The position numbers and the translations under genes were made by a program. Below, in pieces: positions 8,449-13,391 of a stretch of 64,000 nt of DNA; within the stretch, counting starts at the first letter, position 1, and each line of letters opens with the position of its first letter. The notes beneath the pieces are model-generated. The model was not told where the DNA came from. It did not search any database and worked only from the letters and a program-made list of their open reading frames with translations. Source of the stretch: Nitrosarchaeum sp. (GTDB taxonomy: Archaea > Thermoproteota > Nitrososphaeria > Nitrososphaerales > Nitrosopumilaceae); NCBI GenBank assembly GCA_046712755.1, contig JBKKCM010000059.1:9107-73106 (forward strand). The letters run 5' to 3'.

Positions 8449-8533
8449 AAAACTATACCCACAAATAAAGATATCAAGAAATTATTTACTCGCTGAGATC
8501 AATCCAATTAAATAATACAAAAGTTTCGTAAGT

Positions 8534-10318
8534 ATGTTTATGCTAAAATTTCATGGTAAAGTTGCTCTAGTAACAGGCAGTGGAACTGGAATTGGACAAG
8601 CCATTGCCAAAAAATTTATCGAAAATGGTGCCAGTGTAATTATTCTAGGCAGAAGACGAGAGCCGTTAGAAGAAACATCAGTAATGCTAAAAGAAATAAT
8701 TTCCAAAGTAAATAGTGGCGCCACCGTAAGAATTTTCTCCGGTGTTGATGTAAGCGATGAATCTGGAATTAATGAGATGTTTGAGACACTAAAAAAAGAA
8801 AACATTACAGTAGATTACATAATTAATAATGCAGGTGTTTCAGGACCTGTCACTTGCTTTGCAAATGCGCCACTGGATGAATTCAAAAGTACAGTCGATA
8901 TTCACTTGACTGGAACATTTTGGGGTTCAGTTCAAGCACTAAAAGTAATGAAAGAAAATGGAAAGATTGTTACAATTTCGACATTTTTCACAGAAGAAAG
9001 ACCACTAGAGCAAAGACCATACCGATTTAGAAGCCCATACACTGCATCACAGGGCGCAAAAAACAGACTAGTAGAAGCAATGTCTTGGGAATTGACAGAT
9101 AAAAAAATCATATCGATTGGAACAAATCCAGGTCCAGTGCATTCAGATAGGATTTACAAGACAGTTTACCCAAAAGCTGCAGCGGAATTTTTACGAGTAA
9201 GCGGTTTTGAGGACTTGACACCAGTTCAAGTTGATGCTGCAAACAAGGAACTATTGCCATTGTTGGGCGAAGAACAAAATATAATTAAAAATGGAATTGA
9301 AAAAGCTGCACATAAACTATCAAAAGAGAATGGAAAAGACATTGCAAAACTAACTGTTACTCTTGGCAATTTATTAAATAAAATTCAAAGCATTGCAGAA
9401 AAAGTTCAAAACAACACATCACACATGATTGCAGATAAGCAGTTCCTATCACAAGGACAAGTTGCAGAATCTGTTTTGAATCTATGTGATGACCAAATTG
9501 CAAAAATTCTAAACGGCAAGATAATTCCAGGAGACAGAGTATTTTATCCAGTCAAACCACACATTGGTACCACCACACCAGGTGTACATCAACCAGACTT
9601 TACTGGAAGATCAGTTGTCTTTACAATTGATGCAACTGAAAAATCAGATGCAGAGAGAGTTGAATATCTGGCACAGCACGTTACAAAAAATGGCGGCAAA
9701 GTTGCATGTTTTATCTCTGAATCAACTCCAAAAGAACTGCAAGAATACATTGGCGGAAAATTCCATTCCCACATAGTCAATCTCAAGAATCCAGATGAAG
9801 TCCAGAGATGGCTAAATACTGCAAAGACAAATCTTGGCAGCATACTGGCAGTAATCCACATCACAGGAAAACTGCCAAACATTGCAAAACTAACAGAACT
9901 AACAAGGGCAAAATGGCAAGAACTAATTGAAAAATTCATTACAACCCCTGCAATAGTTGGACAAAGAGCATTAGAGCAGTTTGTTCCAGGCGGAGACAAG
10001 GATCCACGATTATACAAAGATGCAAAAGGTGCCATGATGATAATTGGTCCAGATTTGCCATCTGGAACCAAAGTCACAGGACTGCAAAGGGCACAAGTAG
10101 AGGTATTTCGTGGAGCACTAAGACCATTTACAACTACAGTAAACCAAGAACTAAGTGATGTGCTTGATTCAAAGATTAGGATATTCTCAATATTTCCAGG
10201 TTCAGTTACTGGAGTGGAACCAAACAATGAGAGAATTGCTCAAGCATTGAATTTCCTAGTATCAGAGAATGCTGCATCTTCATCAGAAGTCACATTTTGT
10301 GTTGATGAATCAAGATAA
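8534..10318 (+). CDS. SDR-family oxidoreductase with two Rossmann-like domains
   Basis: TGSGTGIG, NNAG, YRFRSPY, PGPVHSDR; second domain degenerate. Confidence 0.85.
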   Translation: MFMLKFHGKVALVTGSGTGIGQAIAKKFIENGASVIILGRRREPLEETSVMLKEIISKVNSGATVRIFSGVDVSDESGINEMFETLKKENITVDYIINNAGVSGPVTCFANAPLDEFKSTVDIHLTGTFWGSVQALKVMKENGKIVTISTFFTEERPLEQRPYRFRSPYTASQGAKNRLVEAMSWELTDKKIISIGTNPGPVHSDRIYKTVYPKAAAEFLRVSGFEDLTPVQVDAANKELLPLLGEEQNIIKNGIEKAAHKLSKENGKDIAKLTVTLGNLLNKIQSIAEKVQNNTSHMIADKQFLSQGQVAESVLNLCDDQIAKILNGKIIPGDRVFYPVKPHIGTTTPGVHQPDFTGRSVVFTIDATEKSDAERVEYLAQHVTKNGGKVACFISESTPKELQEYIGGKFHSHIVNLKNPDEVQRWLNTAKTNLGSILAVIHITGKLPNIAKLTELTRAKWQELIEKFITTPAIVGQRALEQFVPGGDKDPRLYKDAKGAMMIIGPDLPSGTKVTGLQRAQVEVFRGALRPFTTTVNQELSDVLDSKIRIFSIFPGSVTGVEPNNERIAQALNFLVSENAASSSEVTFCVDESR

Positions 10319-10320
10319 GG

Positions 10321-10773
10321 ATGAAAAAATTCTCAGAGTTCAAAGTAGGAGACGAATTTTTTTCCACATGCAGCATTTCAGAAAAAGAGCTTACAGAATA
10401 TATGAAATTCTCCAGAATAAAAAATGCATTTTTAGAAGATATACAAGATACAAAACAAAAACTAGTTTCAGGCAGAGCCATACTATCAAGAATGGAGGGC
10501 GAATTTACCAGACTGAGTCAGATTTATGGAAATCACATCATATTTGTCGGAACTGATGGGGATTCAGACTGGGGGAATAGAAGTGCCAGATTTCTAAAGC
10601 CATTGTACACAGATGAGGTATTGAAGATAAAATTCACCGTATCTGCAAAAGAAGACAATGATGAGGAGTTTGGGAAAATTGCAATAGATTATGAAGGGAC
10701 AAAACAAAACGGAGAGATAGTAGTTATAACAAAGAGAAACTGGTATCGAATTAAAAAAACAGTGTCTAGATAA
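10321..10773 (+). CDS. MaoC-like hot-dog fold protein (dehydratase family)
   Basis: FKVGDEF...ISEKEL; ARFLKPLYTDEVL pattern; 2 nt after the SDR stop. Confidence 0.65.
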   Translation: MKKFSEFKVGDEFFSTCSISEKELTEYMKFSRIKNAFLEDIQDTKQKLVSGRAILSRMEGEFTRLSQIYGNHIIFVGTDGDSDWGNRSARFLKPLYTDEVLKIKFTVSAKEDNDEEFGKIAIDYEGTKQNGEIVVITKRNWYRIKKTVSR

Positions 10774-10823: not shown

Positions 10824-11111
10824 ATGTATGAGAATATTACTAACAAAGCGCTAATCACACTAGCTGTTGAAAAGGCTCTTCTTGAAATTGGATTACCAGA
10901 GTTAGAGTTGGTCACATTTAGACTAAAACAAGACTATCAATGTGAAATTTCTGATTGCCTGAGATACCCCCAGTATCTTAAGATAATATTGTATGAACTA
11001 TTTGGGAATTCATACTCGGACATATTGCAATCAATACAGAAAACATTACAAAAAACTACCATGGAAAAACCTTTGATGTATTTTCTTACTGTTTTAGATG
11101 ATCATTCATGA
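10824..11111 (+). CDS. Small thaumarchaeal output-domain-like (NitrOD-type) protein
   Basis: AVEKALLEIG...PQYLKIILYELFGNSYSDI; paralog of 11942..12223. Confidence 0.65.
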   Translation: MYENITNKALITLAVEKALLEIGLPELELVTFRLKQDYQCEISDCLRYPQYLKIILYELFGNSYSDILQSIQKTLQKTTMEKPLMYFLTVLDDHS

Positions 11112-11908
11112 AGACACGTTTTGATGCACTGGAAAACAAAAACTATCTGTTTCTTGCATTAACTGGAGTAGTAATAATATTTCTTGTTGGAAACATAGCT
11201 AATCAAGAAGAATTTCCTATCTCTGAAAATATGTACATGACAGACTTGCTTTTCATGATAATTCCAGTCATTGTTATTGCATTTGGGTTGATGCTTGTAT
11301 TCAGATACAGATTACGTGGAAATCATGGCATATCCTGGGTCTTATTCACGCTAGCCATTGCTAGTTGGTATGTAGGAGATATGACCTACAAGTATGATTA
11401 CAGATATGATCTTGAAGACCTTTCAACATTAACAAGTGATTTTTTTTACATTATTGGATATCCCCTCTTCTTTGGATTTACAGTATTTTATCTCAAGCCT
11501 AGAAAACAAATCATTTCAAAAAAGATGATTTTGGCATCATCGCTTGTTTCAATCTTGTTTATTATTCCGACTCTTTATTTCACATTTAATGAAGAATATC
11601 AACTGGATAAACTAACGATATTTCTTTATGCAATTTATCCAATATTGGATGGAGTTATTCTAATTCCTTCAATTATTGCCACGTTTCTTTTCTTTAGAGG
11701 ACAAGTTAATCTGCTTTGGTCATTAATTCTAATTGCGACAATACTTTTCATAATAGCAGATACGTCATATCTTGTCTTTTCAATAGAAGAAACTTACTAT
11801 CCGGGGCATCCTGTGGATATACTGTATGTCTGGTCATACATCCTCTATGCATTTGGAGCATTAAGTCACATCAGACTATACAAAAAAAGAAAATCAGAAT
11901 TGGATTAA
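11108..11908 (+). CDS. Multi-TM membrane protein, stand-alone sensor-like domain
   Basis: About 7-8 hydrophobic helices; DFFYIIGYP and YPILDGVIL motifs; no kinase domain. Confidence 0.6.
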   Translation: MKTRFDALENKNYLFLALTGVVIIFLVGNIANQEEFPISENMYMTDLLFMIIPVIVIAFGLMLVFRYRLRGNHGISWVLFTLAIASWYVGDMTYKYDYRYDLEDLSTLTSDFFYIIGYPLFFGFTVFYLKPRKQIISKKMILASSLVSILFIIPTLYFTFNEEYQLDKLTIFLYAIYPILDGVILIPSIIATFLFFRGQVNLLWSLILIATILFIIADTSYLVFSIEETYYPGHPVDILYVWSYILYAFGALSHIRLYKKRKSELD

Positions 11909-11941
11909 AATGATTAACACTTTGAATTATCAGATAAGGAT

Positions 11942-12223
11942 TTAATTTTCTATAATTTGAATAAATTTTTGTATTGGTTCTTCATTGATTGATTTATCAA
12001 AAACTCTACGCATTGTATATACAATATCAGAATATGAATTTCCAAACAGATCATACAATACTGTTTTGAGATATTCAGGATGATCAAAAACATCTTCGAG
12101 GGTTATTCCAAAATTTTCTTTTAATTTTGTTTTAACCTTATCTAGCTCTGGAGGTCCCATGTCAAGAAGCGCATGCTCTACTGCAACTTGAACTAGTTCT
12201 CGATATTCTTGCTGATCATGCAT
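11942..12223 (-). CDS. Small thaumarchaeal output-domain-like (NitrOD-type) protein
   Basis: AVEHALLDMG...PEYLKTVLYDLFGNSYSDI. Confidence 0.65.
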   Translation of the reverse strand: MHDQQEYRELVQVAVEHALLDMGPPELDKVKTKLKENFGITLEDVFDHPEYLKTVLYDLFGNSYSDIVYTMRRVFDKSINEEPIQKFIQIIEN

Positions 12224-12620: not shown

Positions 12621-13391
12621 TTATCCACCAATTAACAGATTCTCAGATATAGAATCAAAAAACAATTTAATTGCAGCTATAATCATTATTGCTGAAACTA
12701 GAATTTGCAGAGATCTTTCTTTTATATCCAAAGAGATACGTGCACCGATTATTCCTCCAACAAAAGCACCTGCAGATAGCAAACCTGCATGGAGAAAATC
12801 AGGATGACCAAGCATACTATGAGTAATGATTCCAGATAAAGAGGCAAAGAGCAAAATGAATTGGGATGTAGGTGCTGCCTTTTTCATAGTCATTCCAATT
12901 CCGACTACAATTAATGGCACAAAGATAATTCCGCCCCCTATTCCAAAAAACGACGAGATTATTCCAGCAAAAAAGCTTGCAGATATGACAAGGACAATCA
13001 TCTGATTTGTGAGGTGTTTTTCTTTAGTCTCAATTTTTTTTCTCAAAAAAATATAGACTGCAGATGATACAAGTACCAGTCCAAATAATATCTTGAATGT
13101 TCCAGGAGTTACATCACTGGAGAGATACGCTCCCAAGACAGTTCCAGGGATGCTTAACAGTCCAAGCTTTAATCCTAGGGAATAATCGATTCTTTTTTGA
13201 CGTGAATATGAAACTGTAGAGCCAACTGCATTACTAAAAGATACAAAAAGACTGTTACTTGCAGCTAACGTTGGCGGAAAACCAAAAAATGTCAAGACAG
13301 GTACAACAATTATTCCTCCACCAAGACCTATCATGGAGCCTAGTATTCCAGCTGCTAGTCCCAATGGGATTAACCATAATTGTTCAATCAT
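12621..13391 (-). CDS. TauE/SafE (TSUP) family permease
   Basis: Two G(L/I)GGG motifs, 8 TM helices. Confidence 0.9.
   Translation of the reverse strand: MIEQLWLIPLGLAAGILGSMIGLGGGIIVVPVLTFFGFPPTLAASNSLFVSFSNAVGSTVSYSRQKRIDYSLGLKLGLLSIPGTVLGAYLSSDVTPGTFKILFGLVLVSSAVYIFLRKKIETKEKHLTNQMIVLVISASFFAGIISSFFGIGGGIIFVPLIVVGIGMTMKKAAPTSQFILLFASLSGIITHSMLGHPDFLHAGLLSAGAFVGGIIGARISLDIKERSLQILVSAIMIIAAIKLFFDSISENLLIGG

What the first reader, a model, noticed from the sequence alone, without database searches (positions are those of the whole stretch)
8534..10773. SDR didomain with malonyl-CoA-reductase-like motifs, coupled to a MaoC protein
Seen in the sequence: the 594-aa SDR has ISTFF...PYRFRSPY, i.e. 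a YxxRxxY motif, followed by PGPVHSDRI. The canonical YxxxK is altered to YTASQ(GAK). A second degenerate Rossmann domain follows, and a hot-dog-fold gene starts 2 nt downstream. Recalled knowledge: Chloroflexus-type malonyl-CoA reductase is built of tandem SDR domains with YxxRxxY and PGP(I/V)ExDR motifs. To my knowledge the acyl-CoA reductase steps of the thaumarchaeal 3-hydroxypropionate/4-hydroxybutyrate cycle lack a firmly assigned gene. Inference: a candidate malonyl-/succinyl-CoA reductase, or a reductase-dehydratase pair for acyl-CoA or PHA metabolism.
Basis: partly seen in the sequence, partly recalled or inferred. Interest (0 to 1): 0.6.

Follow-up and report, generated by a model that had tools for sequence, protein, structure and literature searches.

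The report
Candidate archaeal malonyl-CoA reductase gene
Almost every ammonia-oxidising archaeon carries one copy of this gene, which encodes a stand-alone relative of half of the bacterial malonyl-CoA reductase with a rebuilt active site, making it a strong but unproven candidate for a CO2-fixation step whose gene has not been identified in these abundant microbes.

Summary
Observation confirmed, in a Nitrosarchaeum-like genome. The 594-aa protein folds like one half of Chloroflexus-type malonyl-CoA reductase (MCR): catalytic SDR, 101-residue lid, pseudo-SDR. MCR-C scores Z 37 over 525 residues, MCR-N Z 34, ordinary SDRs at most 29.7. The malonate-binding residues (T150, Y163, R166, Y169, R206) are kept. 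The catalytic Lys is Gln and the tetrad Asn is His in all relatives. The gene occurs in 184 of 186 genomes of amoA-bearing families and in none of 65 other Nitrososphaeria searched. It is neither MCR-N nor MCR-C but a third clade, whose bacterial members are fused to propionyl-CoA-synthase domains and to a second SDR half. That places it between malonyl-CoA and 3-hydroxypropionate. Best reading: the unassigned malonyl-CoA (perhaps also succinyl-CoA) reductase of the thaumarchaeal HP/HB cycle (0.5). Main rival: a semialdehyde reductase (0.22). The hot-dog neighbour is MaoC-fold but has no conserved His, is often missing, unlinked or broken, and does not track PHA synthase, so a reductase-dehydratase or PHA pair is not supported. 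A probable orthologue was tentatively flagged in 2006; I found no assay. This scan found the gene before in other genomes.

The parts
8508..8514 (+). Conserved TATA-like box (TTAAATA) about 25 nt before the second ATG; suggests a leaderless transcript (inferred)
   Evidence: The same or a closely similar AT-rich box lies upstream in 18 Nitrosopumilaceae loci, read by eye; not tested for function
8534..10318 (+). MCR-half-like double SDR, 594 aa (592 aa from the conserved ATG at 8540)
8543..9559 (+). Catalytic SDR domain, residues 4-342, interrupted by the lid. Gly-rich loop at 14-21; R40/R41 point to NADP(H)
   Evidence: Pfam adh_short E 2.8e-39; ordinary SDR structures align to residues 3-340; R40 aligns with the conserved Arg of MCR, which binds the 2'-phosphate in MCR-N
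8903..9151 (+). Active-site segment: H124 (Asn site), T150, Y163, R166, Y169, Q173 (Lys site), K176, R206
   Evidence: H124 invariant in the 61-row alignment; the others invariant in 208 homologues except one gap at R206; column mapping to MCR-N and MCR-C
9152..9451 (+). Helical lid (extra domain), about 101 residues; 45 in MCR-N, 157-160 in MCR-C, 35 in a plain SDR
9596..10315 (+). Non-catalytic pseudo-SDR domain, residues about 355-594
   Evidence: Aligns to MCR SDR4/SDR2; less conserved than the catalytic core, 0.70 against 0.82
10321..10773 (+). MaoC-fold hot-dog protein, 150 aa, without a conserved His; optional neighbour, probably co-transcribed
   Evidence: Fold Z 15.3 to 1q6w and 13.8 to PhaJ 1iq6; alignment; distribution

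Best explanation
The gene encodes the NADPH-dependent acyl-CoA reductase of the thaumarchaeal 3-hydroxypropionate/4-hydroxybutyrate cycle. It reduces malonyl-CoA to malonic semialdehyde and may also reduce succinyl-CoA. Mechanism by analogy with MCR-C (inferred): NADPH binds the first SDR domain; Y163, R166 and R206 hold the malonyl carboxylate; T150 and Y169 form the oxyanion hole; hydride attack gives a hemithioacetal that collapses with Arg assistance and releases CoA; the lid closes over the site, anchored on the pseudo-SDR. The usual Asn-Lys proton relay is replaced by H124, Q173 and K176, which is tolerable if Arg rather than Tyr-Lys supplies the proton. The iron-type alcohol dehydrogenase then reduces the semialdehyde. 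Shown: homology, predicted fold, residue conservation, distribution, fusions of relatives. Inferred: substrate, direction, cofactor, chemistry. The hot-dog protein is an optional neighbour.
For: Best structural match is MCR-C: Z 37.2, 525 residues, rmsd 3.0, against 34.4 and 492 for MCR-N and at most 29.7 for others (Foldseek agrees). Four of the five malonate-binding residues of C. aurantiacus MCR-C are identical (Tyr731, Arg734, Tyr737, Arg773) and Ser719 is Thr (bioRxiv 10.1101/2023.03.21.533589; mapping). Long pre-Tyr loop and long lid as in MCR-C. Present, nearly always as one match, in 184 of 186 genomes of the four amoA-bearing families, 0 of 65 other class members and 0 of 257 other phylum genomes. 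Bacterial members of the same clade sit in polyproteins with PCS-type ligase, hydratase and/or enoyl reductase domains plus a Lys-type SDR half. In 6 of 8 such pairs exactly one half has a long lid, and in the two nearest relatives it is the Gln-type half. The semialdehyde step already has a candidate iron-type ADH in 175 of 175 f1 and f3 genomes. The malonyl-CoA reductase activity was measured in extracts without a gene (PMC6038301; PMC4510362).
Against: No assay. The Lys that is essential in both MCR halves is Gln. The tree groups the clade weakly with MCR-N (81/56); grouping with MCR-C is neither shown nor rejected, p-AU 0.29. T150 and the segment after R206 resemble MCR-N, and the MCR-C hairpin loop is absent. 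The CoA-binding Arg799 and Arg1164 of Roseiflexus MCR have no clear equivalent in the sequence alignment. In four bacterial pairs the Gln-type half has the short lid. Identity to MCR is only about 20%. Presence in all AOA is one clade event shared by many genes. No other cycle gene was recognised among the conserved neighbours.
Confidence: 0.5

Rival explanations
1. It is an MCR-N-like semialdehyde reductase (malonic semialdehyde to 3-hydroxypropionate and/or succinic semialdehyde to 4-hydroxybutyrate) and does not act on thioesters.
For: Weak tree grouping with MCR-N; Thr150; bacterial Gln-type halves are usually the N-terminal half and score better against MCR-N than MCR-C; families f2 and f5 lack the iron-type ADH (0/7, 0/3) but keep this gene; PMC5797428 proposed SDRs about 30% identical to Caur_2614 for this step.
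Against: Kept with an invariant site in 173 of 175 genomes that also have the iron-type ADH; long lid and long loop; loss of the Tyr-Lys relay should hurt alcohol formation most (inference).
Confidence: 0.22
2. One active site performs both reductions, malonyl-CoA to 3-hydroxypropionate, using two NADPH.
For: Mixed MCR-N and MCR-C features in one site; it would fill the gap in f2 and f5, which lack the iron-type ADH.
Against: Bacterial relatives usually keep a second catalytic half, which implies one step per half; most AOA keep the iron-type ADH.
Confidence: 0.08
3. It is specific for succinyl-CoA, and malonyl-CoA reduction is done by another protein such as the aspartate-semialdehyde dehydrogenase homologue.
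For: That step is also unassigned; a remodelled site could take a longer acid; PMC5797428 lists asd and gabD among possible cycle genes.
Against: Fusion partners are C3 propionyl-CoA-synthase domains; the malonate-binding set is intact. The genome has only two semialdehyde-dehydrogenase-family matches, expected for amino-acid synthesis (own knowledge), and one GabD-like aldehyde dehydrogenase.
Confidence: 0.08
4. It is an enoyl-thioester (acryloyl-CoA) reductase, reading Y169...K176 as the Tyr-x6-Lys of FabI-type enzymes.
For: The spacing is there, and acryloyl-CoA reductase is also unassigned.
Against: Ungapped alignment puts Q173, not K176, in the canonical Lys column; bacterial polyproteins already carry a separate enoyl reductase domain.
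Confidence: 0.04
5. The SDR and the hot-dog protein form a PhaB/PhaJ-like reductase-dehydratase pair that supplies PHA synthesis.
For: Adjacent genes in most Nitrosopumilaceae; MaoC fold; this genome has phaC.
Against: The SDR is kept in single-contig genomes without phaC (G016, G084, G134, G175). The hot-dog gene is found in 117/145 f1, 11/30 f3, 0/7 f2 and 0/3 f5 genomes, is unlinked in f3 and is in pieces in several genomes. It has no conserved His.
Confidence: 0.03

Closest known systems
C-terminal half (SDR3-lid-SDR4) of bifunctional malonyl-CoA reductase of Chloroflexus aurantiacus, Roseiflexus castenholzii and Porphyrobacter dokdonensis (PDB 8A30, 8J2B, 8HI5, 6K8S)
   Same: Catalytic SDR, long helical lid, pseudo-SDR; long loop before the Tyr-x-x-Arg-x-x-Tyr motif; Arg after the PGP motif; NADP-type Arg.
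   Different: Stand-alone gene; about 20% identity; Lys to Gln, Asn to His, Ser to Thr; lid 101 against about 158 residues; no hairpin loop; separate clade in trees.
N-terminal half (SDR1-SDR2) of the same MCR, malonic semialdehyde reductase (PDB 8AEW, 8HI6, 6K8V)
   Same: Two-SDR layout; Thr at the Ser site; same Tyr and Arg set; similar segment after the PGP motif.
   Different: MCR-N has a short loop, a 45-residue lid and the canonical Lys.
Unnamed bacterial MCR-like modules in polyproteins of uncultured bacteria (records labelled Deltaproteobacteria, Ca. Deferrimicrobium and Chlamydiae; P0137, P0138, P0184, P0196, P0290)
   Same: Same His-Thr-Tyr-Arg-Tyr-Gln-Lys-Arg signature; up to 36% identity over the whole length; one clade at 100/99 support.
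   Different: Fused to PCS-type domains and to a Lys-type half; none was found characterised.
MaoC/PhaJ (R)-specific enoyl-CoA hydratases (PDB 1IQ6, 5CPG, 1Q6W), for the second gene
   Same: Hot-dog fold, Z 13.8-15.3.
   Different: No conserved His; other invariant residues (E59, D79, D81, R52, R64); below the Pfam threshold.

Membership tests
Bifunctional MCR (Chloroflexus type) | Four tandem SDR domains, two catalytic, about 1,200 aa | tested here: not met
   594 aa with two domains; one match per genome in nearly all AOA
MCR-C (acyl-CoA-reducing half) | Catalytic SDR + long lid + pseudo-SDR | tested here: met
   Z 37, 525 aligned; lid 101 residues
MCR-C (acyl-CoA-reducing half) | Malonate-binding Ser719, Tyr731, Arg734, Tyr737, Arg773 | tested here: met
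   T150 (Thr for Ser), Y163, R166, Y169, R206; the same set is also in MCR-N
MCR-C (acyl-CoA-reducing half) | Catalytic Lys of Tyr-x3-Lys | tested here: not met
   Gln in 208 of 208
MCR-C (acyl-CoA-reducing half) | CoA-binding Arg799 (lid) and Arg1164 (SDR4), Roseiflexus numbering | tested here: inconclusive
MCR-C (acyl-CoA-reducing half) | Falls within or beside the MCR-C clade | tested here: inconclusive
   Not inside it; sister position not rejected, p-AU 0.29
MCR-C (acyl-CoA-reducing half) | [quoted passage not shown] | not testable with these tools
   Needs an assay
MCR-N (semialdehyde-reducing half) | Thr-Tyr-Lys triad, short loop, short lid | tested here: not met
   Thr and Tyr present; Lys absent; loop and lid long
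Classical SDR (FabG/PhaB type) | Single domain of about 250 aa with Asn-Ser-Tyr-Lys tetrad | tested here: not met
   His-Thr-Tyr-Gln and two domains; below every NCBIfam cut-off shown
Divergent SDR (FabI-type enoyl reductase) | Lys kept in the canonical column with the Tyr shifted upstream (definition from own knowledge) | tested here: not met
   Y169 is in the canonical Tyr column and Q173 in the Lys column
MaoC/PhaJ hydratase (second gene) | Hot-dog fold of the MaoC type | tested here: met
MaoC/PhaJ hydratase (second gene) | Catalytic Asp-x4-His dyad (definition from own knowledge) | tested here: not met
   No His among the conserved columns of 41 homologues; the expected positions are I33 and L38, with the register taken from the recalled motif

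The most novel reading that the evidence does not exclude
This one protein supplies both missing acyl-CoA reductions of the AOA cycle (malonyl-CoA and succinyl-CoA), or both reductions from malonyl-CoA to 3-hydroxypropionate, through a lysine-less His/Gln/Lys SDR site. It would be the founding member of a third MCR lineage shared with polyproteins of uncultured bacteria.
Probability: 0.25. Interest if true: 0.8.

Novelty: new variant of a known kind. Interest (0 to 1): 0.64.

Why it matters
AOA are major CO2 fixers in the dark ocean and in soils. Malonyl-CoA and succinyl-CoA reductase activities were measured in extracts, yet papers from 2015 to 2020 list their genes as unidentified, and a 2026 preprint still calls the step lacking or replaced. 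A single cloning-and-assay experiment would test this candidate. A positive result would close a gap in the most energy-efficient aerobic fixation cycle, give a clade-specific marker gene, suggest a bacterial link for this step, and add a compact enzyme for 3-hydroxypropionate pathways. The Lys-to-Gln and Asn-to-His site is also an unusual SDR chemistry.

Tried and rejected
Complex prediction of the SDR with the hot-dog protein gave no answer (score 0.00); it is not evidence either way. Sequence searches for the hot-dog protein found only weak MaoC hits, so the dyad register could not be read from a tool alignment. Sigma-70 promoter and terminator scans were at chance level and do not suit archaea. 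Conserved neighbours are DNA ligase, tRNA-splicing-endonuclease-like and transporter-like genes by eye; no cycle operon was seen. A paper search for the locus tag Nmar_1043, recalled from memory as a proposed candidate, found nothing. Könneke 2014, Otte 2015 and Walker 2010 could not be opened, so an earlier explicit proposal or a negative assay there cannot be excluded. The first homologue search listed only AOA sequences of at least 82% identity. The roughly 550-aa domain before the Gln-type module in P0290 and P0153 stayed unidentified. Rejected readings: FabI-type Tyr-x6-Lys; dead enzyme or frameshift (site invariant across all AOA families); ordinary FabG; PHA pair. Caveats: the bacterial Gln-type group was picked by its Gln and Lys, so only H124 (11/11) and the tree are independent support. 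The 89-row tree was the quick version; near-duplicate rows were left out of both trees. Family names for f2, f3 and f5, and the identity of the iron-type ADH with Nmar_1110, are inferred.

Full report
Observation. The window holds a 594-aa ORF at 8534-10318 and a 150-aa ORF at 10321-10773, 2 nt apart on the + strand. Close relatives are named Nitrosarchaeum and the genome has amoA, so this is an ammonia-oxidising archaeon (AOA). Relatives keep the second ATG (8540), about 25 nt after a conserved TATA-like box, so the protein is probably 592 aa. The motif pair occurs in 1 of 1,269 long open frames of the genome. Five other SDRs of the genome that I checked have the ordinary Tyr-x3-Lys.

Anatomy. 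The two best PDB sequence hits are the full-length MCRs of Chloroflexus and Roseiflexus, followed by MCR-C constructs. All ten hits among proteins over 1,040 aa are MCR-sized, and four are named MCR. The AlphaFold model (pLDDT 91) has an SDR domain with a helical insertion, then a Rossmann domain without a Gly loop. It superposes on MCR-C at Z 37.2 over 525 residues, on MCR-N at Z 34.4 over 492, and on other SDRs at 29.7 or less over about 250 (Foldseek). Profile comparisons cover 502 columns of MCR-C and 442 of MCR-N. The lid is 101 residues, against 45 in MCR-N and about 158 in MCR-C.

Active site. In C. aurantiacus MCR-C, malonate is bound by Ser719, Tyr731, Arg734, Tyr737 and Arg773. Arg734 is proposed as acid/base and Lys741 binds the NADP ribose (bioRxiv 10.1101/2023.03.21.533589). 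The equivalents here are T150, Y163, R166, Y169 and R206, conserved in 208 homologues. MCR-N uses the same set (PMC10470521), so the set indicates a malonyl-type substrate but not which step. The Lys column holds Gln (208/208), the tetrad Asn column holds His, and a new Lys sits three residues on. The register is ungapped, so this is not the FabI pattern. Such invariance argues for a working, remodelled site, not decay.

Distribution. Of 251 Nitrososphaeria genomes, the SDR was found in f1 145/146 (with this genome), f2 7/7, f3 29/30 and f5 3/3, and in none of 65 genomes from ten other families. amoA shows the same family pattern. The five discordant genomes are fragmented assemblies of 95-97% completeness. 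None of 257 other genomes of the phylum matched. This is one clade, so it shows a core AOA gene and not a specific pathway. An iron-type ADH, inferred to be the Nmar_1110 family, is in all f1 and f3 genomes and in no f2 or f5 genome. That agrees with its reported absence from Nitrosocaldus (PMC5797428). The SDR is kept in genomes without PHA synthase.

Relatives outside archaea. A search of 1.84 billion representatives found full-length matches far better than MCR inside giant proteins: P0137 (36% identity, E 1e-91) and P0138 (31%, E 4e-87), plus further modules. Named members of these clusters are bacterial; P0137 and P0138 carry no taxon label. They share the His, Thr, Tyr, Arg, Tyr, Gln, Lys, Arg signature and form one clade with the AOA proteins (100/99), apart from MCR-N and MCR-C. 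P0184 carries an acyl-CoA ligase, an enoyl reductase and an enoyl-CoA hydratase. P0137 and P0196 carry a ligase and a hydratase, and P0290 a reductase and a hydratase. For P0290 and P0137 the best PDB hit is propionyl-CoA synthase 6EQO. Most also carry a Lys-type SDR half. I infer that the two halves are the two redox steps between malonyl-CoA and 3-hydroxypropionate, in either direction. This is the strongest functional evidence, and it argues against enoyl reduction or PHA supply.

Which step? For thioester reduction: the long lid, the long loop and the structural score. In 6 of 8 bacterial pairs only one half has a long lid, and in the nearest relatives (P0137, P0138) it is the Gln-type half. 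The semialdehyde step also has another enzyme in most AOA. For semialdehyde reduction: weak tree grouping with MCR-N (81/56; the alternative is not rejected, p 0.29), Thr150, short-lid Gln-type halves in other bacteria, better bacterial profile scores to MCR-N, and no iron-type ADH in f2 and f5. Two pairs have only short lids, so the lid is not a strict marker. I put malonyl-CoA reductase (with or without succinyl-CoA) at 0.5, semialdehyde reductase at 0.22, both steps in one site at 0.08, succinyl-CoA only at 0.08, and the rest at about 0.12.

Second gene. The model (pLDDT 89) is a MaoC-type hot-dog fold. No His is conserved in 41 homologues, so the PhaJ dyad is missing. It lies within -4 to +9 nt of the SDR in nearly every Nitrosopumilaceae locus that has it. 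It was not found in 28 of 145 f1 genomes or in f2 and f5, lies elsewhere in f3, and is in pieces in G028, G104, G138 and G244. It is an accessory gene. Its invariant acidic and basic residues suggest acyl-CoA binding or thioesterase-like activity (inference).

Prior work and verdict. The reductase genes are described as unidentified (PMC6038301; PMC6964070; PMC4510362). The idea is not wholly new. In 2006 a Cenarchaeum protein with an N-terminal domain 32% identical to MCR and a further domain was tentatively proposed (PMC1403158); it is probably the orthologue, which I did not verify. In 2018 unspecified SDRs were proposed for the semialdehyde step. I found no assay, but three key papers were unavailable. 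Earlier notes of this scan reached a similar reading on other genomes; they are not independent support. The protein works like an MCR half but fails membership of MCR-N and MCR-C on the catalytic Lys and on the tree: a new variant of a known kind, interest 0.64.

Noticed in passing
P0137, P0184, P0196 (4,553-6,910 aa): Giant proteins stringing together a 3-hydroxyisobutyryl-CoA-hydrolase-like domain, an acyl-CoA ligase, a hydratase (plus an enoyl reductase in P0184) and two MCR-like halves, close to a whole propionate-to-malonyl-CoA route in one chain. P0184 is labelled Chlamydiae bacterium.
   Followed up: partly
P0290 residues 905-1450; P0153 residues 1-548; L121:10001-17740: A conserved domain of about 550 aa with no Pfam or Atlas match lies before the Gln-type module; an AMP-binding ligase gene follows on the opposite strand in L121.
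   Followed up: partly
P0154, P0157, P0168: Four-SDR proteins of 1,105-1,137 aa with a Gln-type then a Lys-type half; both lids are short in P0154 and P0157.
   Followed up: partly
L113, L115, L116, L118, L120: In family f3 the hot-dog homologue lies divergently beside genes that look by eye like an acyl-CoA dehydrogenase and a class III aminotransferase; these copies keep a His in the hydratase segment.
   Followed up: no
window 12621-13391 (-): A TauE/SafE-like membrane protein (by eye) lies downstream on the opposite strand in 22 of 30 diverse AOA loci, an old linkage with the SDR gene.
   Followed up: partly
window 10824-12223: A 266-aa membrane protein flanked by two similar small proteins of 93-95 aa is inserted after the hot-dog gene here and is absent from the related loci compared.
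   Followed up: no
families f2 and f5: Ten amoA-bearing genomes lack the iron-type ADH with this query, so their semialdehyde reductase is also an open question.
   Followed up: partly
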